A DNA stretch of 64,000 nucleotides from Eledone cirrhosa (taxonomy: Eukaryota): assembly GCA_964016885.1 (NCBI GenBank), contig OZ024741.1:320850001-320914000 (forward strand). Direction: 5' to 3'. The notes beneath the pieces are model-generated. The model worked only from the letters and a program-made list of their open reading frames with translations. It did no database searches and was not told the DNA's origin. Shown here one piece after another: positions 4,976 to 54,278 of the stretch. Made by a program: the position numbers and the translations under genes. Position 1 is the first letter of the stretch; the number at the start of each line of letters is the position of its first letter.

Positions 4976-5174
4976 ACAAACGAAATGTGGTAAGGAACCA
5001 GATGGACCATAACGCACCAAAGTACTCAATACTTAGGGTAGTAGAGTGGGTAATAGGAACTAGTATGACCCCGACGGCAGAGCTCAAGCCGTTTCGACGG
5101 CTAATTCTGGACTCAATTCGTCCAGAATTAGCCGTCGAAACGGCTTGAGCTCTGCCGTCGGGGTCATACTTGTT

Positions 5175-5177
<3 letters not shown>
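4976..5177. repeat. Fold-back fragment of the PLE terminal repeat seen at 36.5-38.3 kb (HHR stem III plus downstream sequence)
   Basis: gccgtcGAAAcggcttgagctctgccgTCggggtcat in both orientations, inside (TA)n; other copies at 36203-36381, 38335-38520 and 54138-54258. Confidence 0.75.
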
Positions 5178-35980: not shown

Positions 35981-36378
35981 TTATATATATATATATATAT
36001 TCTTGATTTTGCCAGTGATAAATGAAGAGATGATCAGTGTTTCTAACACTTGTAGACCAAGCATACAGCTAACTGTAATGAAATATACATCGTCTGCTTT
36101 ATTTAACTTGAGAGAGGGACAGTTAAAGAACGCAGACGCACACACACACACATGCACACACTCAAACACACACACACACATTTATATATATATATATATA
36201 TATAACGAAGGAAATGTGGTAAGGAACCAGGTGAACCATAACGCACCAAAGTACTCAATACTTAGAGTAGTAGAGTGGGTAATAGGAACGAGTAGGACCC
36301 CGACAGCTGAGCTCAAGCCGTTTCAACGGCTAATTAGCCGTCGAAACGGCTTGAGCTCAGCCGTCGGGGTCCTACTCG

Positions 36379-36459
<81 letters not shown>

Positions 36460-36789
36460 CATACATATATATATATATAATGACGAAGGAAGTGTAGTAA
36501 AGAACCAAGTGGACCATAACGCACCAGAGTACTCAATACTTAGGTTAGTAGAGTGGGTAATAGTAAAATGTTCAAGACCCCGATGGCAGAGCTAAAGCCG
36601 CTTCGACGGCTATTTCTGGACAAAATTAGAATGTTAAGCGTGGTAATAAATAGCCGAACTTTTCAAAGGGTAATTCCTTATATGGGAAGATTGTAGTTGT
36701 CAAAAGGATTGGTCAAAATTTCTTGTAAACACAAGAAACATCACCAATAACCTGCTTAAAACATCTCCCTCCTGATATCTCGTTTATCC

Positions 36790-37555
36790 TCTAATGAGCA
36801 GATATTCGAGGAACATGCGCCGTATTACAACCAGGCCCTCAAGCGAAGCGGCTTTCGGGAGGAAATCTCCTTTTATCCAGCATCCTTTAGCGGAACCAGC
36901 AGGCGACGCCGCCGCTCACGCCATGTAACGTGGTTCAACCCTCCCCACAATGTCGAGGTTGCAACACCAATCGGGAAAATCTTCTTTAGGCTCTTCGAAA
37001 AACACTTCCCACCACAACATAATCAACAAAAACACTATCAAACTCTCTTATAGCACCACATCCAACTTCGCACAAATCATCGCCTCCTTAAACCAGAAGA
37101 AACTCAACTCCTACGGAAGAAACAACCTAGACATTAGTGGAGAGCCGAACAGGAGGTGTAACTTCCCTGATAGATCTACGTGCCCCCTCAACAACAGATG
37201 CCGAGAACGTAACGTGATTTACCAATGCAACGTCAGGACGGAAAACTCCAACAAAGCCTATATAGGATTAACCGCTTGTGACTTTAAGACCCGGCCCTAC
37301 CAACACCGACATACTTTCAGAAACCCGGCCCGGCGCCATGCCACTACACTTTCGCTCCAAGATAATAACATAACATACAATCTTAGAGCTTACTGTCCAG
37401 GGCTAATTCCTACACGGGAGGATGCCGTCCGTGTAACTTATGCTCGGAGGAAACAATACAAATGTTGTACTTGAAGGACCAACTCCTAAACAAAAAAGAC
37501 GAACTTTTAACTGCATGTAAACACCGATTGCGTAGGACTTACCTCAAACCCCATC
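36790..37555 (+). pseudogene. PLE linker plus GIY-YIG endonuclease (frameshifted, RT absent)
   Basis: ORF 36950-37474 and adjacent frames; VIY..YIG motif and Cys/His zinc ligands. Confidence 0.88.
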
Positions 37556-38197
37556 ATGACCCGGGTGGGTAGAAAAAGGCTGCAACATCCTTCTTTTCCT
37601 CACTTGCCCACTTGCCGAACAAGATAGGGGAAACCCCAGCATACATAGGTAGATGTACTTCTTTTCTTTTATCCCTGTATCTCTTCTCACTTCCTTCCAC
37701 TCCCTCTCCTCTTTTTTTTCCTTTTTTCTCTTTCGCTTACCCTGAGGCGGCCCATCGGGTTTTTGTAGCCTCAGTACCACCACCCCAGTAAATTCTATAT
37801 ACCATTGACCGAAAACGCAATACCAGCTAAAAATATAGCAGCTGCTTTAGACTCTAGTTTTGTTTTTATTTTTTATTTTTTTTATATTATTATTATTTTT
37901 ATTTATTTTTTAATCTCAATTTATTAACCTTTTAATTTTATAACTTCCTACTTTTAGATTCCTCAAGAATTCTTTATTCGCCTGCTTACTAACTAGCCTA
38001 ATTTCATACACACTCCTTAGAATTTGCTGTATAGAATTCACTTTCAACGCTTGACCGGCTCCACCCACTCCCTCTTTGTTCTATAGGCATGTTCAGCCAC
38101 CGCCACCTCTCACCCACTGCCATGAAATATTTAATTGTGTTTACAAGAAAGTTTGACCAATCCTTTTGACAACTACAATCTTCTCATATAAGGAATT

Positions 38198-38292
38198 ACC
38201 CCTTGAAAAGTTCGGCTATTTATTACTGCGATAAAAATTCTAATTTAGTCCAGAAATAGCCGTCGAAAGGGCTTGAGCTCTGCCGTCGGGAT
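38198..38292 (+). ncRNA. Type I hammerhead with U3-A8 variant core (UUGAAAA) and long stem II, in PLE terminal repeat
   Basis: acccc TTGAAAA g ttcggctattt...aaatagccgt c GAAA (c/g)ggc ttgagctct gccg TC ggg(g/a)t; inverted copy at 36576-36672 also has TTGAAAA; solo fragments give an intact stem III consensus. Confidence 0.8.
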
Positions 38293-38516
38293 CTTGAACA
38301 TTTTCCTATATATATATATAGAGAGAGAGAGAAAGTATAACTCCGATGGCAGAGTTAAAGCCGTTTCGACGGCTATTTCTGTCCAGAAATAGCCGTCGAA
38401 ACGGCTTGAGCTCCGCCGTCGGGGTCATACTTTTTCCTATTACCCACTCTACTACACTAAGTATTGAGTACTCTGGTGCGTTATGGTCCATCTGGTTCCT
38501 TACCACAATTCCTTCG

Positions 38517-38575
<59 letters not shown>

Positions 38576-38581
<6 letters not shown>

Positions 38582-39275
38582 GAATAGAATTGGTGCTCTG
38601 AAATACCGATATATATATGAATGTATATATATTGTATTTTGCAATAAATTGTATGCTTAATTAAAAGCATTTCGAAGACCTTACGCTATTGTTTTAGAGT
38701 AGTGACAGTTTCACTTACTTTAATTTTCAGCAAACAGGGGAGATAAAGCTGACAGAGCTCTCTTTCGCACTTTTTGGTGCTTATCAAAGCTAACTACTCC
38801 TCCTGTTTGCTGAAAATCATGAATGTTTGATTCTTATAGAATTCTAGTAATAATCAGGAACTGATTATACAGAGCGGTTGCCGGTCAAGCAGAAATTGAA
38901 AATTAGAATTGGTGCTCTGAAATAGCGATATATATATGAATGTATATATACTGTATTTTGCAATAAACTGTATGCTTAATTAAAAGCATTTCGAAGACCT
39001 ATCTAATTTTCAATTTCTGCTTGACCGGCAACCGCTCTGTATAATCAGTTCCTGATTATTACTAGAATTCTATAAGAATCAAACATTCATGATTTTCAGC
39101 AAACAGGAGGAGTAGTTAGCTTTGATAAGCACCAAAAAGTGCGAAACAGGACTCTGTCAGCTTTAACTCCCCTGTTTGCTAAAATTAAAGTAAGTGAGAC
39201 TGTCACTACTCTAAAATAATAGCGTAAGGTCTTCAAAATGCTTTTAATTAAGCATACAGTGTATTGCAAAATACA
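38576..39275. mobile_element. 319-bp retrozyme-like unit: about 1.3 direct copies followed by an inverted copy
   Basis: tagaattggtgctctg at 38585 and 38904; inversion from about 39002; (TA)n flanks; homologous scaffold to the 310-bp repeat. Confidence 0.85.
39093..39184 (+). ncRNA. Type I hammerhead with U3-A8 variant core (UUGAUAA), GUC site
   Basis: agct TTGATAA gcac caaaaa gtgc GAAA cag gact ctg TC agct, closed by agcaaacagg/cctgtttgct; predicted cleavage after 39158; second copy on minus at 38725-38815. Confidence 0.88.
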
Positions 39276-39276
39276 C

Positions 39277-49820: not shown

Positions 49821-49970
49821 TATATATATATATACATATATATATATGCATATAGACATAGAATATTCGAAAATATTCTGTATGTTTATAATAAACATTT
49901 TGAAGACCTAATCGCTATAGAATAGAATACGTCACGTATTACAATTAGATTCTCGATAAAAGCAAGGGAA

Positions 49971-50013
49971 GTAATCTACGCGTTTCATTCTCGTTAGAAA
50001 TCATCAGGACTAC
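49971..50013 (-). ncRNA. Minimal type I hammerhead ribozyme, copy 1
   Basis: Minus: gtagtc CTGATGA t-ttct aacg agaa-t GAAA cgcg TA gattac; palindromic ACGCGT stem III; GUA site (cut between 49977 and 49976); enclosed by a perfect 16-bp stem 49949-49964/50022-50037. Confidence 0.88.
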
Positions 50014-50280
50014 ATATCCAGTGCTTTTATCGAGAATGACACAGCTAGAGACTTATAGAATACTTAGCTGTGTACAGGAACTGGTTTGAAAGAGCGGTTG
50101 CCGGTCCGGCAGAAATTAGAAATTGGAATAAATGCTCTGAAATAGCGATATATATGTGAATATAGACATAGAATATTCGAAAATATTCTGTATGTTTATA
50201 ATAAACATTTTGAAGACCTAATCGCTATAGAATAGAATACGTCACGTATTACAATTAGATTCTCGATAAAAGCAAGGGAA

Positions 50281-50323
50281 GTAATCTACGCGTTTCATTC
50301 TCGTTAGAAATCATCAGGACTAC
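50281..50323 (-). ncRNA. Minimal type I hammerhead ribozyme, copy 2
   Basis: Identical to 49971-50013, offset by 310 bp. Confidence 0.88.
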
Positions 50324-50590
50324 ATATCCAGTGCTTTTATCGAGAATGACACAGCTAGAGACTTATAGAATACTTAGCTGTGTACAGGAACTGGTTTGAA
50401 AGAGCGGTTGCCGGTCCGGCAGAAATTAGAAATTGGAATAAATGCTCTGAAATAGCGATATATATGTGAATATAGACATAGAATATTCGAAAATATTCTG
50501 TATGTTTATAATAAACATTTTGAAGACCTAATCGCTATAGAATAGAATACGTCACGTATTACAATTAGATTCTCGATAAAAGCAAGGGAA

Positions 50591-50633
50591 GTAATCTACG
50601 CGTTTCATTCTCGTTAGAAATCATCAGGACTAC
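50591..50633 (-). ncRNA. Minimal type I hammerhead ribozyme, copy 3
   Basis: Identical to 49971-50013, offset by 620 bp. Confidence 0.88.
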
Positions 50634-50896
50634 ATATCCAGTGCTTTTATCGAGAATGACACAGCTAGAGACTTATAGAATACTTAGCTGTGTACAGGAA
50701 CTGGTTTGAAAGAGCGGTTGCCGGTCCGGCAGAAATTAGAAATTGGAATAAATGCTCTGAAATAGCGATATATATGTGAATATAGACATAGAATATTCGA
50801 AAATATTCTGTATGTTTATAATAAACATTTTGAAGACCTAATCGCTATAGAATAGAATACGTCAGCTATATATATATATATGCATATATATATATA

Positions 50897-50978: not shown

Positions 50979-53975
50979 AAATCAGGAAAGAAGAGTGACA
51001 CGGTTTGCTATACAAAAAAGGTTTTTAATCTCATTGCTGACAATTGTTTCTCTGAACTGGTAGGTCTATAGAGATGGCTACCCGCTTGTTTTCACGTCAT
51101 TCGATCACCAATACATAGTTGTAACCAGTCAATTCATCGGAGCTTGTGAGAATGAAAGTAATATACAGGCATGGCTACTATATATAGTAGTAATGGCATT
51201 CAATCAGAACAATAACAACTATACTAACAATGCTAGCAATAAATTATTTGAAATAATCACAACATCAATCTAGGTGAGAAATATAGTATATCTACGATTT
51301 TAGCGTGTAAAACTAGCTGACATGAGGCAGATGTATAAAATTGACATGTAAAAGCTATCATGGGGTGTATTATATATAGTGTAAAGATAAGCCGGTGGCT
51401 TTAAACAATGTAGGTCGTAAGAATCATTTATTATCTGACAGATGAAAAATTTATCACTGTAGTGAGGATAGTAATATTTGTGGTGTTAGGTTCAATATTT
51501 GTGTGGTCTATATTAGATGAAAGGGTTGTCTAGCTTTCTCATCATCAATAACATACATGTATAAGACAACATTAACAGAGTAGCAATATAATAGGTAAGT
51601 TACTACAGAGGTTAAGGAGGCAATATATATATATAAAGAGAAAACATGCTGACTACAATTATAACAGGAGGAAGATAATATTCTGCTGTAGTAGTATTTT
51701 GAAATTTTCTTGGATTTTGGTTCATTTGTTGAGTCAAGGGTGAGGAAGTTGTGTTGACAGCAGCTGAGAAGGGATATATTTATGGGTTGATAAGGTACTT
51801 ACAGACATTACTGTGGTATAGAATTAAGAAGGCTAGAATGTACTTAATGATTATATTTCTGTGGTGGTTCGTGCAATATAGTGGATATCCTAAGTTGAAA
51901 GCTAAGTTACGTCGGTTCGATTCACGGAGGCTTACATCTTGTGAATTTAGTGGCGATCCTGTGTCTGCAGAAGATTGATCTTTCTAACTTGTTGTTGAGT
52001 AGTCTTTTTACATTTCTAAGGATATATAGTAATTCTAGATCACAGTTGTGATACTGTGATGTGTTTATGTTTATAATTTGGTGTTATGTTGCGCATAGGT
52101 GGGGCGGATTCCCTAGAGGTATTTCTGTGGTTGATCTTGCGTATGTGCGATTCTATATTTGCTGCCGTAGAGTATGACAGTTTTATAGTTTTTCTATTGA
52201 GTATTTTATGATATATGTGTGAAATAGGGAAGTGTTTATCTATTAGTTTAAAGAATGTAGAAGGCAGTCAAGTTTTTACAGAGGAGTTAAAGATTGGATT
52301 GAACCATATGTATTTTCTTTCTCTGATTCTTCTATTGTTTCTAGGGTTTACATTATTGGTGGTTGGACCACTTACTCTAGGTGCTACGTGCCTAACTCTA
52401 TGTCTAGTACTGTTACCTCTATTTTTGTGTGAGCGGTTCGTGTAATTGCTAGTAGATTTGGCGAATAGATGTCTTGATTCGAGCCTAGTGTACATGTGTA
52501 CGGTCAATTCAGACAACTCCACTTGGAATTACATTGGATCCACCGCGGGTACTTTTAAAAAATGATGGTATGTGCACAGACACTCGATGAAAAACCGTGC
52601 ACTTGTGGGTTCTACAACCCTCGCCAAAAAAATCTGGGAACTTAAGGACAATAACACCAACTACAATATCAACTGGTCGAGGTTGTCGGCCGCAAAGACC
52701 TACAGTACCGGTATGTCCCACTGTAGGCTCTGTGATCTAGAATTACTATATATCCTTAGAAATGTAAAAAGGCTACTCAACAACAAGTTAGAAAGATCAA
52801 TCTTCTGCAGACACAAGATCGCCACTAAATTCACAAGATTTAAGCCTCCATGAATCGAACCGACGTAACTTAGCTTTCAACTTAGGATACCCACTATACA
52901 GCACGAACCACCACAGAAATATAATCATTAAGTACATTCTAGCCTTCTTAATCCTATACCACAGTAATGTCTGTAAGTACCTTATCAACCCATAAATATA
53001 TCCCTTCTCAGCTGCTGTCAACACAACTTCCTCACCCTTGACTCTCAACAAATGAACCAAAATCCAAGAACATTTCAAAATACTACTACAGCAGAACATT
53101 ACCTTCCTCCTGTTATAATTGTAGTCAGCGTGTTTTCTCTTTATACATATATATATATTGCCTCCTTAACCTCTGTATTAACTTACCTATTATATTGCTA
53201 CTCTGTTAATGTTGTCTTATACATGTATGTTATTGATGATGAGAAAGCTAGACAACCCTTTCATGTAATATAGACCACACAAATATTGAACCTAACACCA
53301 CAAATATTACTATCCTCACTACAGTGATAAATTTTTCATCTGTCAGATAATAAATGATTCTTACGGCCACCAGACCTACATTGTTTAAAGCCGCCGGCTT
53401 ATCTTTACACTATATATAATACACCCCATGACAGCTTTTGCATGTCAATTTTATACATCTGCCTCATGTCAGCTAGTTTTACACGCTAAAATCGTAGATA
53501 TACTATATTTCTCACCTAGATTGATGTTGTGATTATTTCAAATAATGTATTGTTAGCATTGTTAGTATTGTTGTTATTGTTCTGATTGAATGCCATTACT
53601 ACTATATATAGTAGCCATGCCTGTATATTCCTTTCATTCTCACAAGCTCCGATGAATTGACTGGTTACAACTATGTATTGGTGATCGAATGACATGAAAA
53701 CAAGCGGGTAGCGATCTCTAGACCTACCAGTCAGAGAAACAATTGTCAGCAATGAGATTAAAAACCTTTTTTGTATAGCAAACCGTGTCACTCTTCTTTC
53801 CTGATTTATCATTACTCCACGTGTTTAAAACATAGAAATTACCGCGTACTCGCAGCATCACTATGCCAACGCCTTGTTGAGTCAAACTTAGCCAAGCGTT
53901 GATATCATCCACTACCCGGAGTACCATAACTGGACTACACTTAAGTGGACTACCTATAACAATAATCTGTTACCC
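50979..53975. mobile_element. Head-to-head inverted Penelope-like element (~1.06-kb arms)
   Basis: 50979-52045 is the reverse complement of about 52730-53808; minus arm encodes YIWFNP..KLIDKHFP..TIKLSYST; plus arm ORF 52572-52853 TTLAKKIWELK..CRLCDLE..LLNNK..FCRH (second half of GIY-YIG); (TA)n flanks. Confidence 0.88.
53638..53757 (+). ncRNA. Hammerhead-like fold with CCGAUGA core and ~80-nt stem II domain in PLE terminal repeat
   Basis: tctca caa gct CCGATGA a-ttgactggt...accagtcag-a GAAA caattg TC agc aa tgaga; same core in the inverted copy at 51029-51151. Confidence 0.7.
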
Positions 53976-54085: not shown

Positions 54086-54141
<56 letters not shown>

Positions 54142-54278
54142 GGAGGAGTTCTGGTAAGGAACCAGATGGACCATAACGCACCAGAGTACTCAATACTTAG
54201 GGTAGTAGAGTGGGTAATAGGAGAAAGTATGAGCTCTGCCGTCGGGGTCATACTTTCTCATATATATATATATATATG

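What the first reader, a model, noticed from the sequence alone, without database searches (positions are those of the whole stretch)
38198..38292. Second, unrelated U3-A8 hammerhead (UUGAAAA) in the terminal repeat of a GIY-YIG Penelope-like element
Seen: acccc-UUGAAAA-long stem II (cggctattt/aaatagccg)-GAAA-cggc/gccg-UC-ggggt, in both inverted arms of the PLE. The sequence is unrelated to the 319-bp family. Each local full copy has a lesion (G15.2 here, GAAG in the left arm), but solo fragments (e.g. 5131-5167) give an intact stem III. Known: PLE pLTRs usually carry minimal canonical HHRs. Inference: U3-A8 cores arose or spread more than once in this lineage, and this PLE uses a full-size monomeric ribozyme.
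Basis: partly seen in the sequence, partly recalled or inferred. Interest (0 to 1): 0.75.

Follow-up and report, generated by a model that had tools for sequence, protein, structure and literature searches.

The report
Variant hammerhead ribozyme in Penelope retrotransposon
A jumping gene with thousands of copies in an animal genome carries a hammerhead-ribozyme motif whose swapped core base pair is already published for other such elements; here both forms of the pair occur among close relatives, well-kept copies are predicted to fold as a single-molecule cutter, and the element's own RNA likely starts inside the ribozyme.

Summary
38198-38292 is a decayed copy of a type I hammerhead with a U3-A8 core in the terminal repeat (pLTR) of a Penelope-like element whose protein has Hydra-clade motifs. 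The family has at least 2,051 copies; of the first 100 listed, 99 have A8, 85 have U3 and none has G8. U3-A8 is already published (Perreault 2011; Schistosoma PLEs, Cervera 2014), and this scan noted it before in this genome and another. New here: a 5-bp helix III and long helix II, unlike all 26 tabulated Hydra hammerheads; compensatory helix II changes in a sister family; C3-G8 subfamilies beside U3-A8 ones in that sister family and in the 319-bp repeat; U3-A8 also in a Neptune-like PLE. 'Monomeric' is only predicted: loop 3 keeps a GAGCUC palindrome, and a C3·A8 subfamily spread anyway. Unexpectedly, 40 of 71 sampled arms begin 34-48 bases before the cut site, mostly at an initiator-like A inside helix II, also in the sister family. 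Likely the transcript starts inside the ribozyme, so only read-through RNA could cut. Cleavage and start site are untested. New variant of a known kind; interest 0.45.

The parts
38198..38292 (+). Type I hammerhead motif, right arm; two lesions (G15.2, one helix I mismatch)
   Evidence: aligned with 34 other copies
38203..38209 (+). Core strand U3-U4-G5-A6-A7-A8-A9
   Evidence: family tally
38210..38264 (+). Long helix II arm: G10.1-C11.1, then 9 pairs, then a 32-base apical region
   Evidence: three pairs change on both sides in the sister family
38245..38250 (+). Initiator-like TTAGTC; its A (38247) is the commonest 5' end of short copies, 41 bases before the cut site; likely transcription start (inferred)
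   Evidence: loose contig ends at the same place
38268..38286 (+). Helix III (5 pairs in intact copies) with a 9-base loop holding the palindrome GAGCTC (38275-38280)
38287..38288 (+). Predicted cleavage site, after C17 of GUC
   Evidence: Hammerhead numbering (established knowledge); not tested
38135..38309 (+). Right pLTR arm, short 3' end, followed by (TA)n
36483..36734 (-). Inverted left pLTR arm with the long 3' end ('tail'); hammerhead at 36577-36671 with GAAG
36735..37572 (+). 5'-truncated, frameshifted ORF remnant: RT thumb, WFNPP block, Cys linker, C-terminal GIY-YIG
   Evidence: translation; 80-87% protein identity to genomic copy L060; Pfam GIY-YIG only E = 0.18
38334..38517 (.). 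Separate two-arm mini insertion (fold-back solo) lacking the UUGA strand, in the (TA)n/(GA)n tract after the right arm
36205..36381 (.). Second two-arm mini insertion beside the left arm
4976..5176 (.). Two-arm mini insertion; holds the intact helix III at 5131-5167
54140..54259 (.). Very short two-arm insertion of the same family

Best explanation
This is a decayed copy of a type I hammerhead motif with a U3-A8 core in the pLTR of an abundant Penelope-like retrotransposon with Hydra-clade protein motifs; intact copies are predicted to fold and cut after GUC as single molecules, likely only in read-through RNA, because the element's own transcript likely starts inside helix II. Shown: the motif, its place in the pLTR of a 3.38-kb tandem unit with an RT-endonuclease ORF, the dominance of U3-A8, free variation at N7, compensatory helix II changes, and the pile-up of 5' ends 41 bases before the cut site. 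Inferred: RNA polymerase II starts at the A of TTAGTC, so the 5' end of the mRNA lacks the UUGA strand and cannot cut off its own cap. At the 3' pLTR the whole ribozyme is transcribed and can cut, probably slowly or in part. Reverse transcription primes at two internal sites about 15 and 100 bases after the cut site, one per inverted arm. Priming on the copy of these sites near the mRNA 5' end runs only to the start site and yields the many tiny fold-back inserts. Long inserts need RNA left uncut at the 3' pLTR. The 3-8 pair is a tolerant position that has switched between C-G and U-A several times in this genome.
For: Identity: core, GAAA, GUC and three helices in the family. N7 varies by subfamily (A 35, C 29, T 3, G 2 of the 69 UUGANAA among the first 100 matches, my hand tally). 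92.5% of cells pair, and three helix II pairs change on both sides. Monomer fold: the hammerhead is the lowest-energy fold of natural copy L055 (helix I p 0.99, helix III p 0.98), whereas the palindromic 319-bp and F3 motifs give P <= 0.002. Parent: RLRW, SDKT, YRDD, CxCX5C linker, no CCHH, (TA)n ends (Hydra definition; published proteins); tandem copies 3,382 bp apart with tail leading into the ORF. Start site: 13,257 matches to the tail against 2,051 to the 5' half. 40 of 71 tail-anchored arms begin at -48 to -34, mode -41 (11 arms), and only 5 begin at -6 to 0. In the sister family, whose helix II sequence differs, 26 of 44 arms begin at -41 or -40. Two priming sites: 16 of 20 two-arm loci have one long and one short end, matching the PLE tail and internal priming of PMC11167929. 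Switching.
Against: No cleavage or RNA data. Only 13 of 35 aligned rows have all three helices at p > 0.5, and 10 of 33 ORF-picked copies are fully intact; decay after insertion explains this but is not proven. RNAalifold returns a rival fold that buries GAAA. The pair-type measures do not beat shuffles (249 and 478 of 500), and its double changes mostly reflect one family split among hand-picked rows. A C3·A8 subfamily spread (12 of 100). In a saturation screen of a type III hammerhead only the G-C swap rescued this pair (PMC9901934). An anole PLE hammerhead cut only with protein present and was not needed for insertion in vitro. The TATA-like word at -30 is absent from the sister family. The test for an extra cap-derived G was inconclusive. 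No loop I-loop II contact was identified.
Confidence: 0.6

Rival explanations
1. The ribozyme works like other animal PLE hammerheads, as a dimer or with help from the element's protein: two copies swap helix III strands, with the GAGCUC loops pairing in the middle.
For: The helix III homodimer is -26.9 kcal/mol against 2 x -6.5; 39 of 1,500 loop permutations do as well. GAGCUC is kept in 22 of 35 sister-family arms whose neighbouring loop bases differ. Most other U3-A8 families here have palindromic helix III. Dimer and protein-assisted cutting are published.
Against: Helix III is a stable 5-pair hairpin in single-strand folds (p 0.98). Copies in a tandem lie 3.4 kb apart, and the 5' copy of an mRNA starting at -41 lacks the core strand.
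Confidence: 0.22
2. The motif descends from a hammerhead, but cutting is now weak or dispensable; the sequence is kept for promoter and reverse-transcriptase recognition.
For: The C3·A8 subfamily amplified. Sampled inserts cross the cut site uncut, with only 5 of 71 ends near it. Naiad PLEs thrive without canonical hammerheads. Core mutants did not affect insertion in vitro.
Against: Positions 3 and 8 change together in C3-G8 subfamilies (6 of 7 copies in the 319-bp lineage; 3 C-G and 2 U-G among 5 G7/G8 copies of the sister family). Subfamily-level core variation is otherwise confined to N7 and position 3. Helix II covaries.
Confidence: 0.14
3. The hammerhead reading is right, but the pile-up at -41 is a stall or template-switch hot spot of the reverse transcriptase at an RNA structure or bound protein, not a transcription start.
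For: Ends spread over about 15 bases. The site is at the 3' foot of a weak inner hairpin. The TATA-like word is not conserved and the cap-G test is inconclusive. Palindromic junctions in rotifer PLEs were read as self-priming.
Against: The enzyme passes stronger helices I, III and outer II before stopping. The same offset holds in the sister family with a different apical sequence. The non-coding family F3 with a long helix II shows no such pile-up by inspection of its 30 listed arms. PLE pLTRs are known to hold internal promoters.
Confidence: 0.3
4. The fold is a chance match inside a palindromic repeat.
For: Rfam finds nothing; the window copy folds no better than shuffles.
Against: Position in the pLTR as for all Hydra PLEs, covariation, and U3-A8 descriptor matches 4,909 against 215 control.
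Confidence: 0.02

Closest known systems
U3-A8 minimal hammerheads of Schistosoma mansoni Cercyon PLEs (Cervera & De la Pena 2014, PMC4209133; about 1,300 hits)
   Same: U3-A8 core, type I, in a pLTR, larger than usual helix II, thousands of dispersed truncated copies.
   Different: Those lack a real helix III and are thought to act as dimers. This one has a 5-pair helix III with a 9-base loop and a 55-base helix II arm, in a PLE with Hydra-type protein.
Hammerheads of Hydra-clade PLEs (Craig et al. 2021, PMC8557442, File S2)
   Same: Type I motif near the 3' end of a C-terminal GIY-YIG PLE that inserts into (TA)n.
   Different: All 26 Hydra rows have CUGA-N-GA, a short helix II hairpin and a helix III loop of 1-3 bases. 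None has U3-A8 or a long helix II.
Monomer-active PLE hammerheads of fungi and protists (PMC4209133)
   Same: Type I with a large helix III and no recognisable tertiary contact.
   Different: They are in endonuclease-less telomeric PLEs; a U3-A8 core is not mentioned for them in the text I read.
Poseidon element PAc of Anolis (Frangieh et al. 2024, PMC11167929)
   Same: Two internal priming sites after the hammerhead give the optional tail; uncut RNA is the template.
   Different: C3-G8 core; its tail is short; no transcription start inside the ribozyme was reported in the parts read.
Natural U3-A8 hammerheads in the all-domain survey (Perreault et al. 2011, PMC3088659)
   Same: Same covariation of the 3-8 pair, stated to be active in vitro.
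   Different: Rare scattered examples; no account of switching among close retroelement subfamilies in the section read.

Membership tests
Type I hammerhead ribozyme | Core U4 G5 A6 N7, A9, G12 A13 A14, A15.1-U16.1, H17, with a Watson-Crick 3-8 pair | tested here: met
   Family level: (3-8 pair U-A 24, C-G 3, U-G 3, unpaired 3 of 33 chosen rows)
Type I hammerhead ribozyme | Three helices around the core, helix I open | tested here: met
   Lowest-energy fold of intact copies; 92.5% of cells paired. RNAalifold gave a rival fold; the window copy fails.
Type I hammerhead ribozyme | Loop I-loop II tertiary contact | not tested
   None recognised by eye; no modelling done
Type I hammerhead ribozyme | Site-specific self-cleavage | not testable with these tools
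   No assay; no RNA run listed
Type I hammerhead ribozyme | Match to an Rfam hammerhead model | tested here: not met
   No hit in window or in intact copy L055. A library match is not a defining feature, and the long helix II lies outside the models.
Minimal (dimer-type) PLE hammerhead | Helix III absent or 1-2 pairs with a tiny palindromic loop | tested here: not met
   5 pairs and a 9-base loop; the loop does keep a 6-base palindrome
Penelope-like element, C-terminal EN+ | Single ORF with RT followed by GIY-YIG endonuclease | tested here: met
   Translations of genomic copies with YRDD and the GIY-YIG boxes. Pfam is weak or blank.
Penelope-like element, C-terminal EN+ | pLTRs in tandem or inverted arrangement with optional tail | tested here: met
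   Tandem at L187 and L324; inverted arms with one long and one short end in 16 of 20 loci
Hydra clade of PLEs | RWK motif and DKT in place of DKG | tested here: met
   RLRWR (R for K) and SDKT in L057, against RMRWK and SDKT in published proteins; compared by eye
Hydra clade of PLEs | CxCX5C linker, no CCHH, CxxC and CxH around the conserved E and N | tested here: met
   L033, L059, L060 translations; definition
Hydra clade of PLEs | Insertion into (TA)n | tested here: met
Hydra clade of PLEs | Descriptive traits: generally under 3 kb, canonical hammerhead | tested here: not met
   Unit 3,382 bp; U3-A8 core. These are described tendencies, not diagnostic, so I file it as likely Hydra.
Hydra clade of PLEs | Placement inside Hydra in an RT tree | not tested
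   Reference proteins were seen only as paper text; no tree with them was built

The most novel reading that the evidence does not exclude
This PLE lineage nests its transcription start inside its own ribozyme. The motif is then dead at the mRNA 5' end and live at the 3' read-through, where cutting removes the priming sites for long copies and diverts reverse transcriptase into making over ten thousand mini fold-back inserts. The genome is also a natural mutagenesis panel of the hammerhead core: the 3-8 pair has toggled both ways in several lineages, possibly through a G7 stepping stone (CUGAGAA), and a neighbouring young Hydra family has fixed A at the 'invariant' U4.
Probability: 0.3. Interest if true: 0.72.

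Novelty: new variant of a known kind. Interest (0 to 1): 0.45.

Why it matters
What hammerheads do for Penelope-like elements is still open: they are near-universal, cut poorly, and were not needed for insertion in vitro. This family offers a hammerhead predicted to work alone, natural subfamilies with U-A, C·A, U·G and C-G at the 3-8 pair, and a genomic footprint that places the likely RNA start inside the ribozyme. Together these make the question testable with simple cleavage assays and 5'-end mapping. It also shows that CUGANGA descriptors miss a large share of hammerheads in some animal genomes (4,909 U3-A8 against 5,452 C3-G8 matches with similar patterns). The U3-A8 swap alone is not new.

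Tried and rejected
Rfam scans: no hammerhead hit for this family; only a weak HH9 hit on the 319-bp repeat at 39108-39177 (27.1 bits, below gathering). Pfam: GIY-YIG E = 0.18 for the window fragment, nothing for two longer copies. Sequencing runs: no RNA holder listed; laying two contig runs showed loose ends at the -41 place but gives no expression or copy data, and they may be the assembly's own sample. Cleavage-site pile-up of 5' ends: only 5 of 71 at -6 to 0, rejected as a cleavage signature. Extra cap-derived G before the -41 A: 12 G, 14 C, 2 A, 21 T among 49 arms, confounded by the start of the opposite arm, inconclusive. TATA plus initiator: the only such site in 300 bases and 0 of 20,000 shuffles, but the motifs were recalled and chosen after the fact, and the TATA-like word is missing in the sister family, so I dropped it as support. 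Common origin with the 319-bp family: rejected except for one 8-base word. Common origin with family F3: looks alike around the core, but helix II alone is not significant (65 of 500); left open. Rooting the C3·A8 subfamily: trees on short, partly truncated flanks did not settle direction. Support for the sister family's C3-G8 group was in the cut part's output and was not seen; 4 of its 5 G7/G8 copies grouped together. Lunse et al. 2017 (PMC5785218) and the 2007 paper on exchanges of the core pair were not held.

Full report
Observation. The inverted left arm carries the motif at 36577-36671 (minus strand) with GAAG. The right copy has G15.2 and also GGGAU in helix I. It is predicted not to fold as a hammerhead (P about 0.001). 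The solo at 5131-5167 has an intact helix III. Between the arms lies a 5'-truncated, frameshifted ORF ending in a GIY-YIG domain.

Family. A core-blind anchor has 2,051 genome matches and 0 control matches. My hand tally of the first 100 listed (all on contig C1): U3 85, C3 15; A8 99, G8 0; 69 read UUGANAA with N7 = A 35, C 29, T 3, G 2; 16 carry U3 with a change elsewhere in the core. Twelve read CUGAGAA, a subfamily with a C3·A8 mismatch, checked in flanks. Among 34 copies picked by their ORF, 33 parsed: 27 keep the core, 22 helix III, 22 helix I, 10 everything. Intact copy L055 folds as the hammerhead at lowest energy in three context lengths. Across 35 hand-picked rows, 13 have all three helices at p > 0.5 (10 of 18 in this family, 3 of 17 in the sister family) and 3 prefer a rival hairpin that buries GAAA. 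RNAalifold on the same rows returns that rival fold.

Parent element. Genomic copies give RLRWR, SDKT, YRDD, WFNPP, a CxCX5C linker and a GIY-YIG without CCHH, flanked by (TA)n. These are the marks of the Hydra clade (PMC8557442 section 11), and the proteins match published Hydra proteins block by block on visual comparison. No tree was built. Tandem copies lie 3,382 bp apart, and the tail after the ribozyme leads into the ORF. All 26 Hydra rows of that paper's File S2 have CUGA-N-GA, short helix II and a 1-3 base loop III.

Covariation. A sister family (2,536 matches; about 60-70% protein identity in most matching pieces) has the same architecture. Three helix II pairs change on both sides between the families; 92.5% of cells pair, and 48 cells change on both sides against 22.5 in shuffles (0 of 500). 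The two measures that count pairs or types do not beat shuffles (249 and 478 of 500), and the rows were chosen by me, including C3 and G8 copies on purpose. The signal is therefore about three events, not dozens.

Repeated switching. A U3-A8 descriptor that excludes long helix II and most of the 319-bp family has 4,909 matches against 215 control; a similar C3-G8 descriptor has 5,452 against 66. The commonest U3-A8 family in that list is the pLTR of a full-length PLE with DKG, YLDD, a CX4CxxC linker and CCHH (L201, L203), which I label Neptune-like from motifs, without a tree. In the 319-bp lineage a subfamily with C3 in 7 of 7 and G8 in 6 of 7 copies (UFBoot 97) sits between U3-A8 groups, which needs at least two changes. 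In the sister family 8 of the first 100 listed rows have G8; the five with G7 and G8 read CUGAGGA (3) or UUGAGGA (2) and share other changes. A further U3-A8 family shares its tail with a C3-G8 motif beside a Hydra ORF (0 of 500 shuffles). So 'arose or spread more than once' is supported. Direction, and origin versus transfer between clades, are not settled. The target and the 319-bp family share nothing detectable except an 8-base helix III word.

Monomer or dimer. Helix III is a stable hairpin, unlike the palindromic helices of the 319-bp and F3 families. Its loop keeps GAGCUC: the commonest helix III form among 146 arms has it, as do 22 of 35 sister-family arms, and 39 of 1,500 loop permutations dimerise as well. 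I favour monomer competence with a retained dimer option. Published activity data cut both ways: U3-A8 is called active in vitro (PMC3088659), but a pairwise screen of a type III hammerhead found only the G-C swap to rescue (PMC9901934).

Start site inside the ribozyme. The tail has 13,257 matches, about six times the 5' half. I examined 70 loci around the first listed matches, giving 71 arms. Forty begin 48 to 34 bases before the base after the cut site, with the mode (11) at -41, the A of TTAGTC; 5 begin at -6 to 0; 7 run beyond -100. In the sister family 26 of 44 arms begin at -41 or -40 and 8 run to -43 or further. TCAGT/TTAGT as an initiator is recalled; internal pLTR promoters and an initiator-like TCACT are in print (PMC2377424, PMC3846280). 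Two-arm insertions have one long and one short 3' end in 16 of 20 loci (2 unclassified), as expected from two internal priming sites (PMC11167929). The inference is that mRNA starts in helix II, cannot cut at its 5' end, and that priming near this end makes the mini inserts. The rival is an enzyme stall; the cap-G test was inconclusive and the TATA-like word is not conserved.

Comparison with the known. U3-A8 is published for natural hammerheads and for S. mansoni PLEs. Earlier notes of this scan report it in this genome and another; I did not check their loci. Searches for prior reports; none listed a paper on U3-A8 in Hydra-clade PLEs or on a start site inside a PLE hammerhead, but the library is partial. 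What I saw of each paper: PMC4209133, parts 1-2 of 4 (abstract, results, discussion), no supplements; PMC8557442, passages, section 11, supplement parts 1, 2, 52 and two searches; PMC11167929, parts 1-2 of 4; PMC3088659, passages and section 8; bioRxiv 10.64898/2026.07.22.740005, parts 1-2 of 5, supplements not seen; PMC9901934, PMC7229834, PMC3846280, PMC2377424, PMC13282606, PMC6765202, passages only; Lunse 2017, nothing. Unseen supplements of the 2014 paper and Lunse 2017 may hold similar motifs.

Verdict. Real feature; works like a type I hammerhead and meets the sequence and fold tests at family level; cleavage untested. It is not a minimal PLE hammerhead. Likely Hydra clade. New variant of a known kind. 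Odds by step: hammerhead descent 0.95, cuts at all 0.8, cuts as monomer 0.6, nested start site 0.6.

Noticed in passing
L086:2108-2725 and loci L091-L120 (e.g. L110): A second, young Hydra-type family (51% protein identity, open frames over 700 aa) ends in a hammerhead-like motif with core CAGAAGA, that is A at U4, in 38 of 38 distinct rows, and a 4-pair helix III with a 9-base loop. One literature search listed no natural U4A.
   Followed up: partly
window 49861-50864, minus strand: 310-bp tandem repeat, 75-77% like the 319-bp family outside the ribozyme, but with a C3-G8 hammerhead; three identical units.
   Followed up: partly
window 38576-39276: 319-bp U3-A8 repeat as two inverted arms next to the PLE; tandem units elsewhere, (TA)n ends and 5' inversions suggest a retrozyme moved by PLE proteins.
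   Followed up: partly
L201, L203 (G000 C1): Full-length 4.8-kb Neptune-like PLE between direct pLTRs with a U3-A8 minimal hammerhead and a weak helix I; the commonest family in the first 100 rows.
   Followed up: partly
L007:1150-1245; L121-L150; L336-L365: Family F3: short unit with no PLE ORF found, U3-A8, 62-base helix II and palindromic helix III; helix I varies U-A/U-G/C-G between copies.
   Followed up: partly
window 50980-53806: Another Hydra-type insertion with 1,080-bp inverted arms; near 53650-53760 a hammerhead-like motif with CCGAUGA, very long helix II and palindromic helix III.
   Followed up: no
window 21941 and 42059, minus-strand scan hits: C3-G8 hammerhead with a 51-base helix II arm and palindromic helix III; many such long-helix-II families appear in flanks.
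   Followed up: no
L217-L236 (G000 C1:14.04 Mb and elsewhere): 469-bp tandem retrozyme-like arrays with a canonical hammerhead, at least 15 units in one array; dominates the C3-G8 list.
   Followed up: no
C3 subfamilies: C3 goes with G7 in 12 of 15, 4 of 7 and 3 of 3 copies in three lineages; CUGAGAA may be a stepping stone between U3-A8 and C3-G8. Untested idea.
   Followed up: no
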